64,000 bases of DNA. Origin: Holophagales bacterium. Lineage in GTDB: Bacteria > Acidobacteriota > Thermoanaerobaculia > Multivoradales > Multivoraceae. Below the pieces are notes generated by a model. It worked only from the letters and a program-made list of their open reading frames with translations, made no database searches and was not told the origin of the DNA. The stretch covers positions 207,783 through 271,782 of the forward strand of contig VXZQ01000014.1 in the NCBI GenBank assembly GCA_009845425.1. Direction: 5' to 3'. Positions 3,247 through 46,597 of this stretch are shown here, piece after piece. Position numbers and translations under genes: made by a program. The stretch's first letter is position 1, and every line of letters starts with the position of its first letter.

Positions 3247-4383
3247 ATGGATCCGCTGCACGAACAGATGAGGTCCTGGCGCCGGGACTTCCACCGACAC
3301 CCCGAGCTCGCGTTCGAGGAAGTAGAGACCAGCCGCAAGGTGGCGGCGCTGCTCGAGTCGTTCGACGGCATCGAGGTCCACCGCGGCCTCGCCGGCACGG
3401 GCGTCGTCGGCGTGCTGAAGTCCGGCTCGTCGGAGCGCAGCATTGCACTCCGCGCGGACATGGACGCGCTGCCGATCGAGGAGGAGAACGAGTTCGAGCA
3501 CCGCTCGCGGAACCCCGGCAAGATGCACGCCTGCGGCCACGACGGCCACACGGCGATGCTGCTCGGAGCGGCGAGGCACCTGAGCCGGAACCGGACCTTC
3601 GACGGCACGGTCTACTTCTTCTTCCAGCCCGCGGAGGAGAAGGACGGCGGCGCCCGCGTGATGATCGAGGAGGGCCTGTTCGAGCAGTTCCCTGCCGAGG
3701 AGGTCTACGGCGTTCACAACTACCCGGGAATGGAGGTCGGCAACTTCGGTCTGTGCGCCGGGCCGCTGATGGCCGCGATCGACGTGTTCGAGTTCGCGGT
3801 GACCAGTGCCGGCGGCCACGCTGCCTTCCCTCACGGCACGGTCGACCCGATCCCGATCGGGGCCGAGATCGTCCTCGCCCTGCAGACGATCGTGGCCCGC
3901 AACGTGGACCCGCTGCATAGCGCGGTGATCACGGTGGCCCGTGTCCATGGCGGTCACGCGGACAACGTGATCCCAAGCCGGGTCGTTCACGGCGGCTGCG
4001 TCCGGGCGTTTCTGCCCGAGGTGCAGAAGCTGGTCGAGCGGCGGATGCGCCAGATCGGCCGCGGCATCTGCACCGCCCACGGCGCCGGCTTCGAGTTTCA
4101 GTACCGCCACTACTACCCGGCCACGGTGAACCACGCCGACCAGACCGAGAAGGCGGCCAACGCCGCCCGCGAAGTCGGCAAGGAGGTCACCACCAGCCTC
4201 GCCCCCGTGATGGGTTCCGAAGACTTCGCCTACATGCTCCAGGAACGCCCCGGCGCCTTCATGTTCCTCGGCAACGGCGAAAGCGCCGGCCTGCACACCC
4301 CGCGCTACGACTTCAACGACGACGTCCTGCCCATCGGCATGCGCTACTGGACCACGCTCGTCGAGACGCAGTTGTCCGCGTAG
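3247..4383 (+). CDS. M20 family amidohydrolase (N-acyl-amino-acid / hippurate hydrolase-like)
   Basis: PELAFEE...HACGHDGH...M20D peptidase motifs. Start at the ATG at 3247 (MDPLHEQ); upstream ORF extension is low-complexity. Confidence 0.85.
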   Translation: MDPLHEQMRSWRRDFHRHPELAFEEVETSRKVAALLESFDGIEVHRGLAGTGVVGVLKSGSSERSIALRADMDALPIEEENEFEHRSRNPGKMHACGHDGHTAMLLGAARHLSRNRTFDGTVYFFFQPAEEKDGGARVMIEEGLFEQFPAEEVYGVHNYPGMEVGNFGLCAGPLMAAIDVFEFAVTSAGGHAAFPHGTVDPIPIGAEIVLALQTIVARNVDPLHSAVITVARVHGGHADNVIPSRVVHGGCVRAFLPEVQKLVERRMRQIGRGICTAHGAGFEFQYRHYYPATVNHADQTEKAANAAREVGKEVTTSLAPVMGSEDFAYMLQERPGAFMFLGNGESAGLHTPRYDFNDDVLPIGMRYWTTLVETQLSA

Positions 4384-4400
4384 CGTCGTCGGTATCACCC

Positions 4401-4582
4401 GCCCGGCACGGGGCCGCAGGGGGAGGGGTTCCCTGCGGCCGTTCGCGCTCGGTCGGATGATGGGCAGTGGGCGCTCACTTCACTCCGCTCGCTTCGGTTG
4501 GTCGGTGCTTGCCGTCAGGTCGCCGGGAGTCGCTCGCTGCGAGCCCGCAGGGCACCCCTCCCCCTGCGGCCCCGTGCCGGGC
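4401..4582. repeat. Large hairpin: 36-bp near-perfect inverted repeat (4401-4436 / 4547-4582) with a ~110-nt spacer
   Basis: gcccggcacggggccgcagggggaggggttccctgc at 4401-4436; its reverse complement gcagggcacccctccccctgcggccccgtgccgggc at 4547-4582 (35/36 match). Lies 18 bp downstream of the M20 gene stop. Confidence 0.8.
4435..4481. repeat. Left terminal inverted repeat (~47 bp) of the putative cassette
   Basis: gcggccgttcgcgctcggtcggatgatgggcagtgggcgctcacttc; its reverse complement is found at 7060-7106 with 2-3 mismatches. Confidence 0.8.
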
Positions 4583-4987
4583 TGGACCTCGTCGGGCTTC
4601 GCGCGCTCCTCTTGTGCTTGCGGTGCGGTGACCGCGATCCGGGCGCGGGTGGCTGTCTCTCGGTGGGATCCTTGTTCTCTCACGGACGCTTGACCACCGG
4701 CAATCCACTGACGGCCGGACACCTGCACGGTGGTCGGGTCACCTGCGGTGCGTTCTCGTGCGGACGACCCGCCTGCTGCGCCCGGGTGGCGCGGTCCCAG
4801 CGGGCTCGGTGCGAGCGGCGCTCGCCTCCCTTCAGAAACCAGAGTCCAACCGACGTGAGAGTCGCTCCGCAAGGGAATCGAAGAGCCTAGCGTCGTAGCG
4901 TCAGGAAGCTGGTAGAAACGGCTGTGCGGGTTCTTATGCCAAGCCAGCACACAGAGAACAGAAACGAGAACGGGGGAGGATGGCCGG

Positions 4988-5410
4988 ATGGTGAATCTAC
5001 TCAGAGAGCGGGGCTGGTTTCGAGACGTGGCTGCGGACAAGCTACTCCTCGAGACGGTTGAAGGCTACGGCATGGTGCTGGAAGCGAAGCTCGCCGACAT
5101 GGCCGAGGAGTACGCTGAGCTAGAGCCACTGGGGAACGCGGACGGTATGCTGCAGAGCTGGTGGGAGGGCGTTGAGGAGTTGATCGAAGCTGGCTTGGTC
5201 CGCAACAAGGCTCCCAAGGAGTATGCGTTGACACATGAGGGCCGAGTTCAACTCCACAGTCTTCGGGCTTCCGAGAAGCAGCAGAAGAGCTTGGAGCAGC
5301 AGCAAAGGAGCTTGGAACTTGGTCTGAAACGGCTAAGCGTGGCTCTCTGGGCTCTCGGCGCGAGTGCTCTCTTTGGGTTGCTAAACATCGCTTTACAGTG
5401 GATGGACTGA
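4988..5410 (+). CDS. Hypothetical protein, helical with C-terminal transmembrane anchor
   Basis: 140 aa. GGGGAGGA Shine-Dalgarno 7 nt upstream of ATG 4988. C-terminal hydrophobic helix LSVALWALGASALFGLLNIAL. Located in the low-GC segment. Confidence 0.55.
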   Translation: MVNLLRERGWFRDVAADKLLLETVEGYGMVLEAKLADMAEEYAELEPLGNADGMLQSWWEGVEELIEAGLVRNKAPKEYALTHEGRVQLHSLRASEKQQKSLEQQQRSLELGLKRLSVALWALGASALFGLLNIALQWMD

Positions 5411-5432
5411 ACGGTACGCGGGGATCCCCCGT

Positions 5433-5451
5433 CCGGCCCCGGAACGGGGCC
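5433..5451 (+). terminator. GC-rich stem-loop downstream of the 4988-5410 ORF
   Basis: ggcccc-ggaac-ggggcc (6-bp GC stem) about 25 nt after the stop codon. No U-tract, as is common in high-GC genomes. Confidence 0.25.
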
Positions 5452-5829
5452 AAAGGGACTCGGCTAGCTGACGAAGCAGGCGCGTCTTCGGGGTCAGCTC
5501 GCTCGTCTCGTCGAAGCCATGTGCAGTCCTCGCGTCCCTGAGCCTCCGATCCCTTGATGGATGCCGGGCCCGTTGTCACAGAGGCTGCGCTTGGTCTCCC
5601 ATGTTCGCCGCGTCCACGGAGCTGTTCTGGCTGTTGACCGAATCCTGTATGCGGCGGCGAGCCGACTCAGGGCTGCATGCCTGTGTGTGACGGCGACCGC
5701 AAAGCAGACCACGGGAAGCCCATAGCCAGATGACGATTCCCGGATGGCGCTATGATGCGTTGCCTCGCCGGCACGCCTAGCCCGGATGGCGAACCGCACT
5801 AGACACCGAATGCGCGTGGAGTAAGCACT

Positions 5830-6879
5830 ATGCCGCGTCTCTTCGTCCTCATGCCCTTTTCGCCGGACCTCGAGCCCGTCTATGAGCGCCTCTTCAAAGA
5901 GCCATTCGAGAAAGCTGGTTACGACGTGAGCAGGGCGAAGGACATCGACAGCCAGCGGAACATCCTTGAGGACATTATTGAGTCTGTACGGGATAGCGAT
6001 CTGATACTAGCGGACCTTACAGACTTGAATGCCAATGTGTTCTATGAACTAGGAATCGCACATGCCTTCGACAAGAATGTGGTTCTAGTCAGCCAAGAGA
6101 TAAGTAGCTTACCTTTCGATCTGCAATCCTACCGCGTCGTTCGCTACAGCACCAGCTTCACCGAGATGGAAGAAGCCGTCCAACACATGGAGGACCGTGC
6201 GCGGAAGATCATCTCCGGCGGGATGAAGTTCGCCAATCCAGTTGCGGACTTCGCGGACTCGGTGGCTTCACCTTTCGCGGAAGCGGAAGAGGAGGACGCT
6301 CCAACTGAAGAGGACGAGGACGAGCGTCGCGGCATTCTGGACTTTCAGGCTGACTTCCTAGAGAACGTGGAAACCCTCGGAGCCCTGGTTGGCGACGGCA
6401 CCAAGCGAATTGAGGGTATGAGCGAACGCGTTTCGGCTGCCAACGAACGCATCACGGGAGTCGAGTTCGGCCAGCCTAGTCGGCAGCGTCGGACGATTCG
6501 GGACCTGGGATTCTCCCTGGAGAAAGACGCGGCATGGTTCAAGGACTTCGGTAGCAGATACTACGATGTGCTGGCGGAAGTAGAAGATGCTGTCGTCGGA
6601 ATGTTCAGCACTAAGAGGCACCTTGATGGGGAGAGCCGGGAGGAGTTGATTCTATTCATAGATGTGACGGAGAAGACAGAAAGCCAACTCTCGGATGCAG
6701 CGGCCAATTTCCAGAGCCTGATAGCGGCGATTGACGGAGTGCCGAAGATCGAGCGCAGGTTTGACCGAGGCAGTCGTGCACTGGCAAGAGAGCTTGAGAC
6801 CTACATAGACAACATCGAGTTGTCGATTGCTGTCATAACGAGATCAAGAAACCTGGCCAAGAAGATGTTGGGTGACTAG
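5830..6879 (+). CDS. DNPH1 (Rcl) / nucleoside 2-deoxyribosyltransferase-like N-terminal domain fused to an acidic linker and a ~190-aa helical domain of unknown function; candidate nucleotide-targeting defense effector
   Basis: N-terminus ...LILADLTDLNANVFYELGIAHAFDKNVVLV...PFDL... parallels the DNPH1 core (VVAEVTQPSLGVGYELGRAVALGKPILCL) including the catalytic-type YELG Glu. Acidic linker EAEEEDAPTEEDEDE. Lowest GC in the window (~47%). Confidence 0.6.
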   Translation: MPRLFVLMPFSPDLEPVYERLFKEPFEKAGYDVSRAKDIDSQRNILEDIIESVRDSDLILADLTDLNANVFYELGIAHAFDKNVVLVSQEISSLPFDLQSYRVVRYSTSFTEMEEAVQHMEDRARKIISGGMKFANPVADFADSVASPFAEAEEEDAPTEEDEDERRGILDFQADFLENVETLGALVGDGTKRIEGMSERVSAANERITGVEFGQPSRQRRTIRDLGFSLEKDAAWFKDFGSRYYDVLAEVEDAVVGMFSTKRHLDGESREELILFIDVTEKTESQLSDAAANFQSLIAAIDGVPKIERRFDRGSRALARELETYIDNIELSIAVITRSRNLAKKMLGD

Positions 6880-7059
6880 GGACTGGCCCGAGCAGTCGGC
6901 TTGGGGCGGATTGGGAAGACCGGGTTCTTGTCGCCGGACGGGCCAGCCTGACTGTCTGAGACTGGTGTGTGTTGGGGGAGCAGTTTGGAGCGCTCCCTGG
7001 CCGTTGTGCGCCGAAGGTGCGTGCGATCTTCGCCACTTCGGCACACGCAGAGGAAGGAA

Positions 7060-7106
7060 GAAGTGAGCGCCCACTCCCCATCGTCCGACCGAGCGCGAAC
7101 GGCCGC
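7060..7106. repeat. Right terminal inverted repeat (~47 bp), reverse complement of 4435-4481
   Basis: gaagtgagcgcccactccccatcgtccgaccgagcgcgaacggccgc; followed (7107-7140) by a degenerate copy of the 36-bp hairpin repeat. Confidence 0.8.
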
Positions 7107-7169
7107 CTGGGACCGCGCCCCCCGGACTCTCGGCAGGCGGGTGCTACTACCGCCGCTGCGCCGTCGGTG

Positions 7170-8075
7170 CTACGCGCAGTTGCAGAGTTCGATGAAGAAG
7201 GCGCGGACGGTGTCGAGGAACTCGGGAGAGCTCAGGGTGGTCATGTGGTTGGCGCCTTCGATGACGTGGAGGCGGTGCTCCTTCATCACGTCGACCAGGG
7301 CGTCGGCGTTGGGCTTCAGGGGATCGTCGCTGCCAATGATGTTGAGGGTCGGCACCTTGTTGATGCGGAGGAGTTCGGCGTTCACGTCGAGGGCGGGCAT
7401 GCCGCGGACGACGGCTGCCAGGGCCATCTGGTCGTTCGCGGCGACCATCGCCTGGCCGATCGCCTGAACCTGTTCAGGGGTCGGCGGTTCCTCGCCGGGC
7501 CACAGGAACTCGACGAGAGGGCCGCCGCCCTTTCCCGCCTCGAGGGAGGCGGCCAGCGCGTCGAACATCGCGTCGTCGCGCAGTTCGGGGCTCGGCCAGC
7601 CGGCGCCGCCGACCACGGCGGACATGAGCCGGTCAGGTGCCAGGGCGACGAGCTTCATCGTGATGAAGCCACCCATCGAGTAGCCGACGACGTGGGCCTG
7701 CTGCAGCCGCAGATGATCGAGCAGGTCGACGACGTCCAGAGCCATCCGTTCGCCGTAGCTCGCGGGGTCGTGGGGCTTGCCGCTCATGCCGTGGCCGCGC
7801 TGGTCGACGGCGATGACCTGGAACTCCTCGGCCAGCCGGCCGATGATGCCGGCGGCGCCCCAGTTCGAGGCGGCGGTGCCGGTAATGCCGTGAAGCAGCA
7901 CGACCGGGTCGCCGCGGCCTTCGACGACGTAGTGGATCTCGACGCCGTCACTGGCCGTGAACGACCGGGTCGAGGCTTCGCCTTGCGCGTGAGCGCCGGC
8001 GAAGGCGACTGTGAGCACTAGCGCCGCCAGGACGGCAGCGAACATCGACCGCGGTTTCTTCGTATGGATCATCAT
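7170..8075 (-). CDS. Secreted alpha/beta hydrolase
   Basis: Signal peptide, HG oxyanion box (VVLLHG), nucleophile elbow GYSMGG. Start chosen at MMIHTKK (8075). Confidence 0.8.
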   Translation of the reverse strand: MMIHTKKPRSMFAAVLAALVLTVAFAGAHAQGEASTRSFTASDGVEIHYVVEGRGDPVVLLHGITGTAASNWGAAGIIGRLAEEFQVIAVDQRGHGMSGKPHDPASYGERMALDVVDLLDHLRLQQAHVVGYSMGGFITMKLVALAPDRLMSAVVGGAGWPSPELRDDAMFDALAASLEAGKGGGPLVEFLWPGEEPPTPEQVQAIGQAMVAANDQMALAAVVRGMPALDVNAELLRINKVPTLNIIGSDDPLKPNADALVDVMKEHRLHVIEGANHMTTLSSPEFLDTVRAFFIELCNCA

Positions 8076-21752: not shown

Positions 21753-23819
21753 TCAAGGCAGCGCGAACGCCATCAACTCCGGCACGCCGTCCGTATCGCG
21801 CCTGCCGGCGACCGTCAGCGCGATGTACTGCTTGCCTTCCCAGAGGTAGGTCATCGGCGTGCCGAGCCCGCGCGCCGGCAGCGGCACCTCGGCGATCACG
21901 TCGCCCGTCCGCTTGTCCCGGGCGACGAGGCGGTTGCCGCCATCGTCGTCCGGCGCGTGCTGGCCGTGGATCAGCAGGGTCTTCGTCAGCAGCGGTCCGG
22001 TGTAGGTGTCGCCGCCGAGCGGGGGAAGGTCGAGGTCCTTCAGTCGAGGGTGGTTGCGCAGCGTGTCGTTGGTGCCGAGCGGCTTCATCCACACGTGCTC
22101 GCCGGTGAAGAGGTCGATCGCGGTCATCCGCGTGTACGGGGGCTTGAACAGGGGCAGACCTTCCGGCATCGCGGGACGCCGGCCGCGGCCGCCGTGGGTG
22201 TAGCGGAGGGTGCCGCCTTCTAGCGGGTCGGGCGTGTAGAACGTGACCATGCTGAACGCGTTCCGCGACGGCACGTAGAGCCAGCCGGTCTCCGGATCGA
22301 CCGCGGCGCCGTACCAGTTCGCGCCACCTCCGGCTGACGGACGGAAGATCGTGCCCCGCTTGCCGCCGGGTTCGGGCAGGGACGGCGGCGTGTAGAGCGG
22401 CCCGATCCGGTAGTCCTTGATGACGTCGAGAGCCATCTGTCTGATCTCGGGCGTGAAGTCGGCCAGGTCGTCTTCAGTCACGCCCTGGTACTCGAACGGC
22501 GCTGGCTTCGTCGGGAAGGGCTGGGTGGGAGCCGCCGTGTCGCCGGGCATTGTCGCCGGGGGCACCGGCCGATCCTCGATCTCCCAGACCGGGTCGCCCG
22601 TGACGCGGTCGAAGACGTAGAGGAAACCCTGTTTGCTGACCTGGGCGACGATCTGTCGGGAGTCGGCGCCGTCGCGGCCCGGGAGGTCGATCAGGGTCGG
22701 TGCGGCCGGGAAATCGTAGTCCCAGAGGCCGTGGCGGACGGCCTGGAAGTGCCAGAGCTTCTCTCCCGTCTCGACATCGACGGCGACCAGGCTTTCGGAG
22801 TAGAGGTTGTCGCCGGGCCGGTGGCCGCCGTAGAAGTCGTTCGTGGCGGTGCCGATCGGCAGGTAGACGATGCCGTTCTCGTTGTCACCCGAGAGCATGG
22901 TCCAGACGTTCGCGTTGCCCGAGTACCGCCAGGACTCGTCCTCCCAGGTCTCGACGCCCTCGTCGCCCTCCTGGGGCACGGTGCGGAACACCCACCGAAG
23001 CTCGCCGGTGCGCGCGTCCCAGCCGCGCACCCAACCGGGTATCGACTCCCTGGTGATCCGGCGGTCGGCGATCGAGGCGCCGGTGACGACGACGTCCCGG
23101 ACCACAACCGGCGGCGACTGCATCGAGTAGAGCAGGGCGTTCAGGTAGTCCCGCTCGCCGCGGTTCGCGCGCGGCAGGTCTTCCATCAGGTCCACCCGGC
23201 CGCCGTCTCCGAAGTCCTCGTTCGGGCGGCCGGTACGGGCATCGACCGAGAGCAAGTAGCCGTCGCCAGTGCCCCAGTAGACGCGACTGTCCGCGTCGTC
23301 GCCTTCCTCTCCGTTCGTCCAGTACGCGACGCCGCGCTGGTTCCAGACCACGGTCATCGTCGTCGTGCCGCTTTCGTAGCTCTTCGGGTTGTACGCCCAG
23401 ACCGTCCGGCCGGTGCCGGGGTCGACCGCGGCACCGATCGAGATCGGCGTGTTCAGGAACAGCAGTCCCTCCTGCATCAGCGGCGTCGCCTTCAGGTTGC
23501 GGATGAAGGGAGCGCGGCCGGCGCGCCAGAGCAGCGGATCGTCGTCCTTCAGCCGGCTGAAGATGACGTCGCGGTCGGCGTACCACTCGCCGCCCGCCTC
23601 GGACTTGCTGAGGAAACCGTCGACCGACCGCCAGCGCCAGGCGACCTCGAGTTCGCCGAAGTTCGTGGCGTCGATCTGATCGAGCGGCGAGTACTTGGTC
23701 GACCCTGTGTCACCGCCGTAGCTCGGCCACTCGCCGGCCGGGGCGCCGCGCTGGGCGGCGGCCGGGGCGGCGAGCAGCAGGGCGACCAGGCCGCCGGCGG
23801 CAATCGTCGTTCTGGGCAT
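21753..23819 (-). CDS. PQQ-dependent dehydrogenase (quinoprotein alcohol/glucose dehydrogenase family), secreted
   Basis: Signal peptide, then GEWPSYGGDTGSTKYSPLDQI...LEVAWRW... PQQ beta-propeller repeats. Start at MPRTTIAAG (23819). Confidence 0.85.
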   Translation of the reverse strand: MPRTTIAAGGLVALLLAAPAAAQRGAPAGEWPSYGGDTGSTKYSPLDQIDATNFGELEVAWRWRSVDGFLSKSEAGGEWYADRDVIFSRLKDDDPLLWRAGRAPFIRNLKATPLMQEGLLFLNTPISIGAAVDPGTGRTVWAYNPKSYESGTTTMTVVWNQRGVAYWTNGEEGDDADSRVYWGTGDGYLLSVDARTGRPNEDFGDGGRVDLMEDLPRANRGERDYLNALLYSMQSPPVVVRDVVVTGASIADRRITRESIPGWVRGWDARTGELRWVFRTVPQEGDEGVETWEDESWRYSGNANVWTMLSGDNENGIVYLPIGTATNDFYGGHRPGDNLYSESLVAVDVETGEKLWHFQAVRHGLWDYDFPAAPTLIDLPGRDGADSRQIVAQVSKQGFLYVFDRVTGDPVWEIEDRPVPPATMPGDTAAPTQPFPTKPAPFEYQGVTEDDLADFTPEIRQMALDVIKDYRIGPLYTPPSLPEPGGKRGTIFRPSAGGGANWYGAAVDPETGWLYVPSRNAFSMVTFYTPDPLEGGTLRYTHGGRGRRPAMPEGLPLFKPPYTRMTAIDLFTGEHVWMKPLGTNDTLRNHPRLKDLDLPPLGGDTYTGPLLTKTLLIHGQHAPDDDGGNRLVARDKRTGDVIAEVPLPARGLGTPMTYLWEGKQYIALTVAGRRDTDGVPELMAFALP

Positions 23820-44611: not shown

Positions 44612-46597
44612 ATGTGCGTGTTTGCGGCGGCGCTGGTCGGTTTCGTCGCCGGCGCCGCCGGGGCCGAGACCGGCGAGCAGGGTCGCTCCGTCTACGGCGA
44701 GTGGCGGCATCACGGCGGCGACCACGCCTCGAGCCGCTACTCGCCGCTGACCCAGATCGACGGTTCGAACTTCAGCCGGCTCGAGGTCGCCTGGCGCTGG
44801 CGCACAGCGGACCACGAGGTGCCGCTGGACGTGCTTCCGGGCTACGACACGGGGTTCTATCGCTCCGTTCCCTTGATGATCGGCGGCCGCCTGTTCGCAC
44901 CGACCAGCCTGGGCCAGGTCGCCCTGCTCGACCCGGCGACTGGCGAGCAGGAATGGGTCTACAACCCGAAGACCTGGGAGCGCGGCGGCACCACGATGCG
45001 GCCGGTCGGCGCTCGCGGCATCGAGTACTGGTCGGACGGCGAGAAAGAGCGCCTGTTCGTCGCCACGATCGGCCGCCAGCTCGTCTCGATCGACGCCGCC
45101 ACCGGACTGGCCGACCGCGCGTTCGGCGAGGATGGCGTGGTCGACCTGGCGCAGGATCTGGGGCCGGGCGACTACGCGATCCGCCACGTCACGCACGGCG
45201 CGCCGCCGATCGTCGTCGGCACCAGCGTGATCGTCGGCTCGAAGATCTTCGACTACTCGATCAGGAGCGACGCACCGCCCGGCCATGTGCGTGCCTACGA
45301 CGTCCACACGGGCGAGTTCAAGTGGCGCTTCAACACGATTCCCCGGGACGACGAGTACGGCGTCGAGACCTGGGAGAACGAGTCCTGGCGCACGGCCGGC
45401 AACGCGAATGTGTGGACGTCGATGAGCGCGGACCACGAACTGGGATACGTCTACCTGCCGACCAGCACGCCGTCGAACGACTACTACGGGGCCGACCGGC
45501 CGGGCGACAACCTGTTCGCCGAGAGCCTGGTCTGCGTCGACGCGGAGACGGGCGAACGCATTTGGCACTTCCAGACCGTCCGCCACGGCATCTGGGACTA
45601 CGACATCGCTTCGGCCCCGAACCTGCTCGACATCGTCGTCGACGGCAAGCTGATCAAGGCCGTCGCGCAAGTCTCGAAGACCGGCTTCACGTACGTGTTC
45701 GACCGCGCCACCGGCGAGCCGGTGTGGCCGATCGAGGACCGGCCGGTGAATCACAAGTCGACGGTGCCGGGCGAGAAGCTGTCAGAGACGCAGCCGTTCC
45801 CGACGAAGCCACCTGCCTTCGAGCGGCAGGGCGTCAGCGAGGATGACCTGATCGACTGGACGCCGGAACTGCGCGAAGAGGCACTGAAGATCGCGGAGAA
45901 GCTGGTGCTCGCGCCCATGTTCCCGCCCCTGATCGTCAAGGGTGAGGGCGGCAAGGAGGGCGTGATGGTCGTCCCGGGGGCCGCCGGTGGCGCGAACCAC
46001 CCCGGAGCGTCCGTCGACCCGAGGACCGCTGTGCTCTTCGTCGAGTCGCAGAACCGGCCCACCGGGATGTCGCTGATCGAGCCGGATGCGGCGCGCCGTC
46101 CGGACTGGCGGTACGTGATCGACTACGTCGACACGGGTGGGCCACAGGGCCTGCCCCTGACGAAGCCGCCGTACCGGACGATTACCGCGATCGACCTGAA
46201 TCGTGGCGAGCACCTCTGGCGCATCCCTGTCGGTCCGGGCCCGAAGAACCATCCGGCCATCGCTCACCTGAACCTCGGCGACATGGGCACGATCTACTTC
46301 GGTATGCCGGCGGACGGCGGTCTGCTCGTCACCCGCACGCTCCTGATCGGCTTCGTGGCCCTGCCCGACGAGGACAATCCCCGCACCAGCAGCGGCGGGC
46401 TCCTGCGCGCCTACGACAAGGCGACAGGCGAACTGCTCGCCGAAGTGAGAACGGACGTCTGGCTGCACGGCCCGCCGATGACCTACATGCATGAGGGCCG
46501 GCAGTACATCGTCATCGCCGGGGGCGGCGCCCGCAATCGCCGGATCCCCGATGAGTTGATCGCCTTTGCGTTACCGGAGTCCCCGACCGATGCTTAA
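44612..46597 (+). CDS. PQQ-dependent dehydrogenase (paralog of 21753-23819), secreted
   Basis: Same signature as the first copy (GEWRHHGGDHASSRYSPLTQI...LEVAWRW). Start at ATG 44612 after the signal-peptide Met. Confidence 0.85.
   Translation: MCVFAAALVGFVAGAAGAETGEQGRSVYGEWRHHGGDHASSRYSPLTQIDGSNFSRLEVAWRWRTADHEVPLDVLPGYDTGFYRSVPLMIGGRLFAPTSLGQVALLDPATGEQEWVYNPKTWERGGTTMRPVGARGIEYWSDGEKERLFVATIGRQLVSIDAATGLADRAFGEDGVVDLAQDLGPGDYAIRHVTHGAPPIVVGTSVIVGSKIFDYSIRSDAPPGHVRAYDVHTGEFKWRFNTIPRDDEYGVETWENESWRTAGNANVWTSMSADHELGYVYLPTSTPSNDYYGADRPGDNLFAESLVCVDAETGERIWHFQTVRHGIWDYDIASAPNLLDIVVDGKLIKAVAQVSKTGFTYVFDRATGEPVWPIEDRPVNHKSTVPGEKLSETQPFPTKPPAFERQGVSEDDLIDWTPELREEALKIAEKLVLAPMFPPLIVKGEGGKEGVMVVPGAAGGANHPGASVDPRTAVLFVESQNRPTGMSLIEPDAARRPDWRYVIDYVDTGGPQGLPLTKPPYRTITAIDLNRGEHLWRIPVGPGPKNHPAIAHLNLGDMGTIYFGMPADGGLLVTRTLLIGFVALPDEDNPRTSSGGLLRAYDKATGELLAEVRTDVWLHGPPMTYMHEGRQYIVIAGGGARNRRIPDELIAFALPESPTDA

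What the first reader, a model, noticed from the sequence alone, without database searches (positions are those of the whole stretch)
4988..5410. Tail-anchored helical protein co-carried upstream of the DNPH1-like gene
140-aa ORF with a strong Shine-Dalgarno site (GGGGAGGA), a predicted helical soluble part and a single C-terminal TM helix. It is followed by a GC stem-loop and then the effector-like gene. It could be a membrane sensor or partner, or an immunity or regulatory component of a two-gene system.
Basis: inference. Interest (0 to 1): 0.5.

Follow-up and report, generated by a model that had tools for sequence, protein, structure and literature searches.

The report
Membrane-anchored winged-helix protein on mobile cassette
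The 140-aa ORF is a real gene for a small membrane-anchored winged-helix protein from a rare, unnamed family found on mobile islands, and it is not a conserved partner of the enzyme gene beside it.

Summary
The ORF at 4988-5410 is real. It has a good ribosome-binding site and coding-type GC periodicity, and 17 diverged homologues (34-43% identity) share its architecture.

An AlphaFold model built on the family alignment (pLDDT 85.8) shows three parts:
- a helical stalk;
- a C-terminal hydrophobic helix, present in all 18 members.

So "tail-anchored" holds, and "helical soluble part" is more precisely a winged helix.

No p140 relative lies beside any of 6 independent close homologues of the 349-aa gene, or in 80 viral loci carrying its N-terminal domain. 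No 349-aa relative lies beside any of 5 other p140-family loci.

The two genes sit 420 bp apart in a 2.2-kb low-GC cassette (4860-7059). The cassette occupies a hypervariable spot between two host genes; that spot is empty in six close relatives and holds other cargo in two.

The family travels on islands carrying integrases, transposases and restriction-modification genes. Its winged-helix core is acidic in every member, which argues against classical DNA binding.

Function is unproven. My best guess is a self-associating, membrane-tethered binding module acting on its own in exclusion or defence. Interest is modest.

The parts
4972..4980 (+). Shine-Dalgarno-like GGGGGAGGA, 8 nt upstream of the ATG
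   Evidence: Read directly from the sequence.
4988..5410 (+). Gene for the 140-aa tail-anchored winged-helix protein (F4060_14010 in GCA_009838785.1)
   Evidence: ORF list. Coding GC periodicity. 18-member family. AlphaFold model with pLDDT 85.8.
5027..5233 (+). Winged-helix core, residues ~14-82: helices 14-45 and 51-67, beta-hairpin wing 71-81. Acidic.
5234..5332 (+). Polar helical stalk, residues 83-115. It starts with the family-invariant QLHSLR motif and contains a tandem 21-nt (one heptad) duplication at 5273-5314 (EKQQKSL/EQQQRSL).
   Evidence: AF2 gives one continuous helix 83-139. Invariant columns. Direct repeat D2.
5333..5401 (+). C-terminal hydrophobic helix (predicted membrane anchor), residues ~116-138, with Asn134 inside it. 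Only 2-4 residues follow.
   Evidence: Hydropathy. A hydrophobic tail is present in all 18 members. An N/Q lies exactly 30 residues after QLHSLR in 12/18 members; this protein has N at +40.
5435..5451 (+). 7-bp GC hairpin (GGCCCCG GAA CGGGGCC), 25 nt after the stop codon. No U-tract.
   Evidence: Sequence. Fold z = -1.17, not exceptional. No terminator-pattern hit.
5411..5829 (.). 419-bp spacer between the two genes. About 65% GC, higher than either gene. No Rfam family, no sigma-70-type promoter match, no exceptional fold.
5830..6879 (+). Neighbouring 349-aa gene. N-terminal NDT/TIR-like domain plus a C-terminal helical region. Belongs to a large family usually found alone in defence islands and prophages.
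   Evidence: Pfam Nuc_deoxyrib_tr 1.5e-5, below the curated cut-off. PADLOC TIR effector 1.8e-8. phrog_3634 1.6e-26. 781 homologous clusters. Contexts. 283 viral stretches.
4860..7059 (.). 2.2-kb low-GC (52-61%) cassette carrying both genes. It is absent from nine related genomes.
   Evidence: Composition. blastn against L010-L018. Junctions against L015 at 4859/4860 and 7059/7060.
4384..4859 (.). GC-rich palindromic intergenic element on the left flank of the cassette. It includes a ~190-nt hairpin (arms 4398-4438 and 4545-4585) and the left arm (4419-4481) of a 63-nt inverted repeat.
   Evidence: Repeats. Fold z = -7.4. The element is present in L015 without the cassette.
7060..7125 (.). Right arm (7060-7122) of the 63-nt inverted repeat. 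It belongs to the pre-existing palindromic element, not to the cassette.

Best explanation
ORF 4988-5410 is a genuine gene. It encodes a small tail-anchored protein with three parts:
- an N-terminal acidic winged-helix (wH) head of the PadR/MarR/Sso10a structural type;
- a short helical stalk;
- a single C-terminal hydrophobic helix with almost nothing after it.

It belongs to a rare, unannotated family of 18 clusters at 90% identity. Members ride on integrase- or transposase-bearing islands next to changing cargo such as restriction-modification genes, Fic and nucleases.

In this genome it arrived together with the 349-aa NDT/TIR-like gene in a 2.2-kb foreign cassette. The cassette dropped into a hypervariable site between two convergent host genes. 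The two genes are independent passengers, not a conserved pair.

Proposed mechanism (inferred, about 0.3 on its own):
- The protein sits on the cytoplasmic face of the inner membrane, head in and tail through the membrane.
- It self-associates through the stalk and through a polar Asn/Gln inside the membrane helix.
- It uses the acidic wH head to bind a protein or other basic ligand rather than to act as a classical DNA-binding repressor.
- It acts on its own as a mobile-element accessory factor, most plausibly in exclusion or abortive-infection-type defence.
For: Shown:
- Real gene: coding GC periodicity, SD, homologues with the same architecture.
- Tail anchor: a hydrophobic C-terminal segment in 18/18 members, net positive charge before it and 3-15 residues after it.
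- Polar residue in the tail: N/Q exactly 30 residues after QLHSLR in 12/18 members.
- Acidic core: net charge -4 to -12 and pI 4.5-5.4 in all 18.
- Foreign cassette in a hotspot: low GC; six relatives have the two host genes directly adjacent; L015 has only the palindromic element; L016 and L010 carry other inserts.
- Independence from the 349 gene.
- Mobile and defence contexts of the family: integrase or an integrase fragment of one family in L095, L098/100/105 and L102. MmeI plus Fic. DDE transposases. GmrSD_C nuclease. N6_N4 methyltransferase.

Inferred: the topology, the self-association, the nature of the ligand and the biological role.
Against: - No function is demonstrated.
- There are no PADLOC or NCBIfam hits. 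The only phage-family link is phrog_4278, of unknown function.
- None of the 2.9 million IMG/VR contigs encodes a member.
- Membrane insertion rests on hydropathy alone. This member has the weakest Kyte-Doolittle tail score in the family (1.96), though not the weakest Hessa-type sum.
- Only five independent contexts of the family besides this strain could be read, one of them too short to be informative, so a variable-effector partnership cannot be excluded.
- An acidic wH does not strictly rule out DNA binding.
- All copies of this particular gene are identical, so there is no selection signal within the lineage.
Confidence: 0.6

Rival explanations
1. Two-gene system. The tail-anchored protein would be the sensor, partner, immunity or regulatory component of the downstream NDT/TIR-like effector. 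More loosely, it would be the constant module of a system with swappable effectors.
For: - Both genes are on the same strand in the same 2.2-kb cassette, with matching codon-position GC.
- In L095 a family member is followed, after a similar ~400-bp gap, by a different effector-like enzyme, a GmrSD_C HNH nuclease.
Against: - 0/6 close 349-family contexts and 0/80 viral loci have a p140-family gene.
- 0/5 other p140 contexts have a 349-family gene.
- 781 clusters against 18.
- A 420-bp spacer containing a hairpin separates the genes.
- Other downstream neighbours are an integrase fragment, a transposase on the opposite strand, or unrelated small ORFs.
- The L095 nuclease carries a signal-peptide-like N-terminus, which does not fit a cytoplasmic partner.
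Confidence: 0.12
2. Membrane-tethered transcription factor. The wH head would bind DNA and regulate cassette or island genes from the membrane, like ToxR/CadC/TcpP but without a periplasmic sensor.
For: - The wH fold is closest to MarR/PadR/Sso10a DNA-binding proteins.
- The protein has a single membrane helix.
- ToxR-type proteins show that membrane-tethered wH activators exist (PMC10629549, PMC5430869, found).
Against: - The wH core is acidic in all 18 members, and the presumed recognition helix is rich in D/E with no conserved basic residues.
- There is no OmpR-type Trans_reg_C match.
- Only 2-15 residues lie beyond the membrane helix, so there is no external sensor.
- No DNA is conserved upstream or downstream among family loci that could serve as an operator.
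Confidence: 0.15
3. Chance ORF, or the real gene lies on the opposite strand.
For: High-GC genomes produce many long spurious ORFs. An antisense 192-aa ORF (5001-5579) overlaps this one.
Against: - The codon-position GC pattern fits the + frame only.
- Protein-level homologues at 34-43% identity have conserved motifs and architecture, with E down to 1.8e-14 by single sequence and 1e-33 to 1e-53 by profile.
- The AF2 model is confident.
Confidence: 0.02

Closest known systems
Sso10a / PadR / MarR-type winged-helix proteins (Pfam HTH_45, PadR)
   Different: - No Pfam model reaches its curated cut-off.
- The core is acidic (pI 4.5-5.4), whereas these families are DNA binders.
- The C-terminal helix continues into a membrane anchor, which these soluble regulators lack.
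ToxR / CadC / TcpP membrane-bound winged-helix activators
   Same: A cytoplasmic N-terminal wH domain is tethered to the inner membrane by one transmembrane helix (papers found).
   Different: - Their wH is the OmpR type, and they carry a periplasmic sensor domain.
- Here the wH is PadR/MarR-like and acidic.
- Only 2-15 residues follow the membrane helix.
Lactococcal AbiP (recalled from memory, not tested here)
   Same: A single-gene abortive-infection protein that is membrane-anchored and has a cytoplasmic binding domain. It is a precedent for the proposed stand-alone mode of action.
   Different: AbiP is anchored at its N-terminus and binds nucleic acids through a different domain. No sequence or structural comparison was made here.
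Stand-alone TIR-like/NDT-like NADase defence genes, e.g. Swarozyc/DUF4062 (bioRxiv 10.64898/2026.05.01.722283). This applies to the neighbouring 349-aa gene.
   Same: Both are TIR/NDT-like N-terminal domains spread horizontally among defence islands next to changing neighbours, and both act without a dedicated small partner. The 349 family shows the same context pattern.
   Different: The 349-aa protein matches Nuc_deoxyrib_tr and a PADLOC TIR effector model, not DUF4062. Its activity is untested.
phrog_4278 (phage protein family of unknown function)
   Same: 13 of 18 family members match its wH-plus-stalk region, best E = 1.9e-5; the window protein scores 0.006.
   Different: The match is weak and partial. 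The phrog has no known function, and no family member was found in IMG/VR contigs.

Membership tests
Conserved two-gene (partner + NDT/TIR-like effector) system | Homologues of both genes co-occur across genomes | tested here: not met
   Profile HMMs of both families were run on all fetched loci. The two occur together only in this strain's own copies, L006-L009. 0/80 viral loci with the 349 N-terminal domain have a p140 hit.
Conserved two-gene (partner + NDT/TIR-like effector) system | Operon-like organisation (short or overlapping spacing, co-transcription) | tested here: inconclusive
   The genes are on the same strand but 420 bp apart, with a GC hairpin after the first gene. No promoter or terminator consensus was found. 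Transcription is not testable here.
PadR/MarR/Sso10a-type wHTH DNA-binding regulators | Winged-helix fold | tested here: met
PadR/MarR/Sso10a-type wHTH DNA-binding regulators | Sequence match above the family's curated threshold | tested here: not met
   HTH_45 best E = 9.5e-4 among members, and 14.2 bits against a 25.5-bit cut-off for the window protein. PadR 0.028.
PadR/MarR/Sso10a-type wHTH DNA-binding regulators | Basic DNA-contacting recognition helix or wing; DNA binding | tested here: inconclusive
   The core has net charge -4 to -12 in 18/18 members, and the recognition helix is rich in D/E. This argues against DNA binding, but binding itself is not testable here.
ToxR/CadC-like membrane-bound transcription activators | OmpR-type wHTH (Trans_reg_C) plus a periplasmic sensor domain after the TM helix | tested here: not met
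   No Trans_reg_C hit. Only 3-15 residues follow the hydrophobic segment.
Tail-anchored inner-membrane proteins | Single hydrophobic helix at the extreme C-terminus, no N-terminal signal, positive-inside flank | tested here: met
   Hydropathy and flanking charges hold in 18/18 members. This is a prediction only.
Tail-anchored inner-membrane proteins | Actual membrane insertion with N-in, C-out topology | not testable with these tools
   Needs fractionation or reporter fusions.
Known anti-phage defence systems (PADLOC-DB 2.0) | Significant match to a model of a known or candidate defence protein | tested here: not met
   No hit for the window protein. Only isolated hits at E > 0.01 for other members.
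Mobile insertion cassette / TIR-bounded transposon | Terminal inverted repeats that belong to and move with the cassette, plus a target-site duplication | tested here: not met
   The 63-nt inverted repeat (4419-4481 / 7060-7122) is present in L015, which lacks the cassette, so it belongs to the resident palindromic element. The cassette ends themselves show no inverted repeat. Only a possible 5-bp GTGAG lies at both junctions. There is no transposase or integrase remnant in the cassette.

The most novel reading that the evidence does not exclude
The p140 family could be the constant, membrane-tethered sensor module of an undescribed modular defence system. In that reading it pairs with interchangeable downstream effectors: the NDT/TIR-like enzyme here and a GmrSD_C-type HNH nuclease in L095. 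It would signal through oligomerisation of its Asn/Gln-bearing membrane helix. It would also be a split-gene analogue of the wH-plus-NDT retron Ec86 effector.
Probability: 0.1. Interest if true: 0.6.

Novelty: new variant of a known kind. Interest (0 to 1): 0.3.

Why it matters
The result removes a tempting but unsupported "sensor plus effector" annotation. The NDT/TIR-like gene should be analysed as a stand-alone module.

It also defines a small, previously unannotated protein family: an acidic winged helix, a stalk, and a tail anchor carrying a conserved Asn/Gln in the membrane. The family is confined to mobile islands of a narrow set of uncultured bacteria; several of the source records come from sponge microbiome studies.

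If the family proves to be a stand-alone exclusion or defence factor, it would add a very compact architecture to the list of membrane-acting immunity proteins.

The locus is also a clean natural example of an integration hotspot with four different occupancy states among close relatives.

Tried and rejected
1. Word-indexed homology search with the single protein found only itself. The family emerged only from the exhaustive HMMER scan and a profile search.
2. Terminal inverted repeats as the ends of a transposable cassette. Rejected because L015 has both arms without the cassette.
3. An integrase or transposase remnant inside the cassette or the 420-bp spacer. tblastn with the island integrases and neighbouring proteins found nothing in 4300-7300.
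4. An ncRNA or riboswitch in the spacers. There is no Rfam hit of note, and the spacer fold is no better than shuffles.
5. An intrinsic terminator after the ORF. There is no U-tract and the fold z is -1.17.
6. Conserved DNA around family members, such as an operator or att site. Nothing turned up beyond the coding similarity.
7. Homology between the two neighbouring proteins. None.
8. Family members in viral contigs. None. The metagenome scan added one new locus only.
9. Single-sequence AF2 gave a poor model (pLDDT 70) and was replaced by the alignment-based model. Foldseek against PDB and BFVD gave only non-significant, though consistent, winged-helix hits. The afdb50 library was unavailable.
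10. Literature searches found no described tail-anchored PadR-like family.

Full report
**The observation**

The window holds an ATG-initiated ORF at 4988-5410 (+) of 140 codons, with an in-frame stop upstream at 4913. GGGGGAGGA lies at 4972-4980, which puts the GGAGG core 8 nt before the start codon.

GC content at codon positions 1/2/3 is 0.667/0.362/0.702, the normal coding pattern. The overlapping antisense 192-aa ORF gives 0.684/0.694/0.456.

The last ~23 residues (SVALWALGASALFGLLNIALQW) form the only hydrophobic segment:
- The best 19-residue Kyte-Doolittle window scores 1.96.
- K113 and R114 precede it, and only QWMD follows.
- A summed Hessa-type score is +0.7, against +6.8 to +11.3 for the most hydrophobic 19-mers of three soluble neighbours (scale values recalled from the literature).

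A 7-bp GC hairpin (5435-5451) follows the stop codon. It has no U-tract, and the region folds no better than shuffled sequence (z = -1.17). The next gene (5830-6879) starts 420 bp downstream.

**Where it sits**

The exact protein is F4060_14010 of a Holophagales MAG (GCA_009838785.1). It recurs with identical sequence on contigs from the same set of sponge metagenome samples.

The stretch from about 4800 to 6950 has 52-61% GC, against about 69% around it. GC3 of both genes in that stretch (0.70 and 0.66) is far below the ~0.9 of flanking host genes.

I fetched nine related genomes through the adjacent M20 peptidase, at 89-99% amino-acid identity, and compared them by blastn. The site between the convergent M20 peptidase and alpha/beta-hydrolase genes shows four states:
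- **L011, L012, L013, L014, L017, L018:** the two host genes are directly adjacent.
- **L015:** holds only a ~440-bp GC-rich palindromic element. This equals window 4384-4859 plus 7060-7125.
- **L016:** holds an unrelated 950-bp two-gene insert.
- **L010:** holds a ~9.8-kb island with an AraC/diphthamide-synthase-like gene and a frameshifted tyrosine integrase.

Against L015, the window's insert is 4860-7059. So the two genes came in as one 2.2-kb foreign cassette at a hypervariable site.

The 63-nt inverted repeat that brackets the cassette (4419-4481 / 7060-7122) is part of the resident palindromic element, because L015 has both arms without the cassette. It is therefore not a transposon end. 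No integrase or transposase remnant is detectable in the cassette.

**The protein family**

A word-indexed search found only the protein itself. An exhaustive HMMER scan of 1.84 billion representatives found four relatives, with E values from 1.8e-14 to 1.4e-8. A profile search then raised this to 17 clusters besides the query.

The 18-sequence alignment shows these shared features:
- an invariant LLE..E motif in the first helix;
- a block W...L.ELI..GLV......Y.LTH.GR.QLHSLRS;
- a C-terminal hydrophobic tail in every member. The tail varies in sequence but keeps its character, with net positive charge before it and 3-15 residues after it.

In 12 of 18 members an Asn or Gln sits exactly 30 residues after the conserved QLHSLR, inside the hydrophobic tail. 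The window protein has Asn134 at +40. Its longer spacing is partly explained by a tandem 21-nt duplication at 5273-5314, which adds one heptad (EKQQKSL/EQQQRSL) to the stalk.

About half the members carry an extra Arg/Trp-rich N-terminal extension (WRRIQVWRRRRIWK...). The window protein lacks it.

**Fold**

With the family alignment, AlphaFold2 gives pLDDT 85.8. The model has helices at 14-45 and 51-67, a beta-hairpin at 71-81, and one long helix at 83-139.

- Foldseek hits against PDB and viral models are non-significant, but they are the same kind of protein.
- At sequence level, Pfam HTH_45 matches 13/18 members weakly, best E = 9.5e-4 and below its cut-off.
- A family profile hits the PadR-like RosR structures at E = 0.008.
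- phrog_4278, of unknown function, matches 13/18 members, best E = 1.9e-5.
- PADLOC and NCBIfam give nothing.

So the "helical soluble part" is a winged-helix domain on a helical stalk.

One unexpected point is that the wH core is acidic in all 18 members (net -4 to -12, pI 4.5-5.4). The helix that corresponds to the PadR recognition helix is rich in Asp/Glu and has no conserved basic residues.

**Test of the two-gene idea**

The 349-aa neighbour has an NDT/TIR-like N-terminal domain:
- Pfam Nuc_deoxyrib_tr at 1.5e-5, below the cut-off;
- a PADLOC TIR effector model at 1.8e-8;
- weak DNPH1 matches in the PDB.

It belongs to a large family of at least 781 clusters.

I read the contexts of six independent close homologues (37-54% identity). 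They lie among R-M genes, AAA_15/21 ATPases, HTH_3-peptidase_M78/DUF3368 pairs and the like. None has a small tail-anchored gene upstream.

I built profile HMMs of both families and ran them on six-frame translations of all these loci:
- Both families occur together only in this strain's own copies.
- The N-terminal domain of the 349 family is common in IMG/VR contigs, with 283 confirmed stretches. None of the best 80 loci has a p140-family hit within 4 kb.
- None of the other p140-family loci has a 349-family gene.

**What the family does travel with**

Five further independent contexts were read, one of them (L101) too short to show neighbours:
- **L095:** tyrosine integrase, then the homologue, then after ~400 bp a signal-peptide-bearing GmrSD_C-type HNH nuclease.
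- **L096/L097:** two tandem paralogues flanking a predicted tRNA-Gln, next to DDE transposases.
- **L098-L100, L105:** Fic and an MmeI-type R-M enzyme upstream, and a C-terminal fragment of the same integrase family immediately downstream.
- **L102-L104:** an integrase island with an N6_N4 methyltransferase.

The L095 integrase is 83% identical in DNA to the degraded integrase in the L010 island, which occupies the very hotspot studied here. In every locus the family gene has lower GC than its surroundings. The consistent theme is mobile islands with defence-type cargo, with no fixed neighbour.

**Most likely mechanism**

- **Shown:** a real gene; a winged-helix head, stalk and conserved hydrophobic tail; a foreign cassette; no conserved pairing.
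- **Inferred:** the protein is inserted tail-first, with the head in the cytoplasm (positive-inside flank, almost no extracytoplasmic residues). It self-associates through the stalk and the intramembrane Asn/Gln. That polar residues in membrane helices drive helix association is established knowledge; it was not tested here.
- **Inferred:** the head binds a protein or other basic ligand rather than acting as a standard DNA-binding repressor, because it is acidic throughout the family.
- **Inferred:** given its contexts, I favour a stand-alone mobile-element accessory role of the exclusion or abortive-infection type, at about 0.3.

A membrane-tethered regulator (0.15) and a variable-effector partnership (0.1-0.12) are the live alternatives.

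**Comparison with known systems**

- **PadR/MarR/Sso10a proteins.** The fold resembles them, but the protein fails their sequence thresholds, is acidic, and is membrane-anchored.
- **ToxR/CadC (papers).** The overall layout resembles them, but the OmpR-type domain and the periplasmic sensor are both missing.
- **Retron Ec86 effectors.** The wH-plus-NDT combination in these effectors, which appear among the structural hits, is a suggestive parallel to the gene pair. The wH similarity is generic, however, and the pairing is not conserved.
- **The neighbour gene.** It behaves like recently described stand-alone TIR-like NADase defence genes that move between defence islands without a dedicated partner. 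It is not a DUF4062 member by Pfam.

**Verdict**

The ORF is real and its anatomy was read essentially correctly. The proposed functional coupling to the neighbour is not supported. What remains is a rare, unannotated family with a common fold in an uncommon arrangement. I rate it a new variant of a known kind, with interest about 0.3.

**Limits**

- Only five independent contexts of the family could be read, one of them too short to be informative.
- Membrane insertion and oligomerisation are predictions.
- The AF2 model is a monomer.
- Identical copies of this gene give no selection signal within the lineage.

Noticed in passing
window 4384-4859 and 7060-7125: A GC-rich palindromic intergenic element. 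It contains a ~190-nt near-perfect hairpin (arms 4398-4438 / 4545-4585, 95% complementary; fold z = -7.4, 0/200 shuffles as stable). It also contains a 63-nt inverted repeat whose arms now bracket the cassette. The element is present without the cassette in L015 and absent from six other relatives. Its nature (MITE-like, recombination scar or att region) is unknown.
   Followed up: partly
window 4383-7170; loci L010-L018: The site between the convergent M20 peptidase and alpha/beta-hydrolase genes is an insertion hotspot with four states among close relatives: empty (six genomes), palindromic element only (L015), a 950-bp two-gene insert (L016: 117 aa with a weak ABC-3C CTD11 match, plus 158 aa), and a 9.8-kb integrase island (L010).
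   Followed up: partly
window 4855-4859 and 7063-7067: GTGAG occurs at both junctions of the 2.2-kb insert. It could be a 5-bp target duplication or microhomology. Divergence from the only 'element-only' relative (L015) prevents a firm call.
   Followed up: partly
window 5273-5314: A tandem 21-nt duplication inside the gene adds exactly one heptad (EKQQKSL/EQQQRSL) to the stalk helix. This partly explains why this protein's stalk is ~10 residues longer than in most relatives.
   Followed up: yes
L096/L097 3274-3777 and 4986-5495: Two tandem paralogues of the p140 family (about 55-70% identical to other long-form members) flank a 177-aa P-loop fragment and a predicted 79-nt tRNA-Gln at 4678-4756, next to DDE transposases.
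   Followed up: no
family members P0123, P0125-P0129, P0131, P0132, P0136: The long-form members carry a conserved, very basic Arg/Trp-rich N-terminal extension (WRRIQVWRRRRIWKRQSRT, net +8 to +14). The window protein lacks it. It could be a membrane- or nucleic-acid-binding segment, or a partner for the acidic core.
   Followed up: no
window 5830-6879; loci L107-L186: The N-terminal NDT/TIR-like domain of the 349-aa neighbour is common in IMG/VR viral and prophage contigs (283 confirmed stretches), usually in proteins of 240-345 aa. Close full-length homologues sit in R-M/AAA_15-21/HTH_3-M78 defence islands. In L092/L093 one overlaps a DUF1902 gene by 4 nt.
   Followed up: partly
L095 5895-7016 and L102 3436-4233 (-): Next to two different p140-family genes lie secreted-looking proteins that share a weakly similar region (33% over 86 aa, E = 5e-5). 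The L095 protein ends in a GmrSD_C-type HNH nuclease motif.
   Followed up: no
window 22111-23768 versus 44663-46197: A series of long imperfect inverted repeats (up to 204 nt, 71-79% complementary) about 21-24 kb apart. They probably mark paralogous genes in opposite orientation.
   Followed up: no
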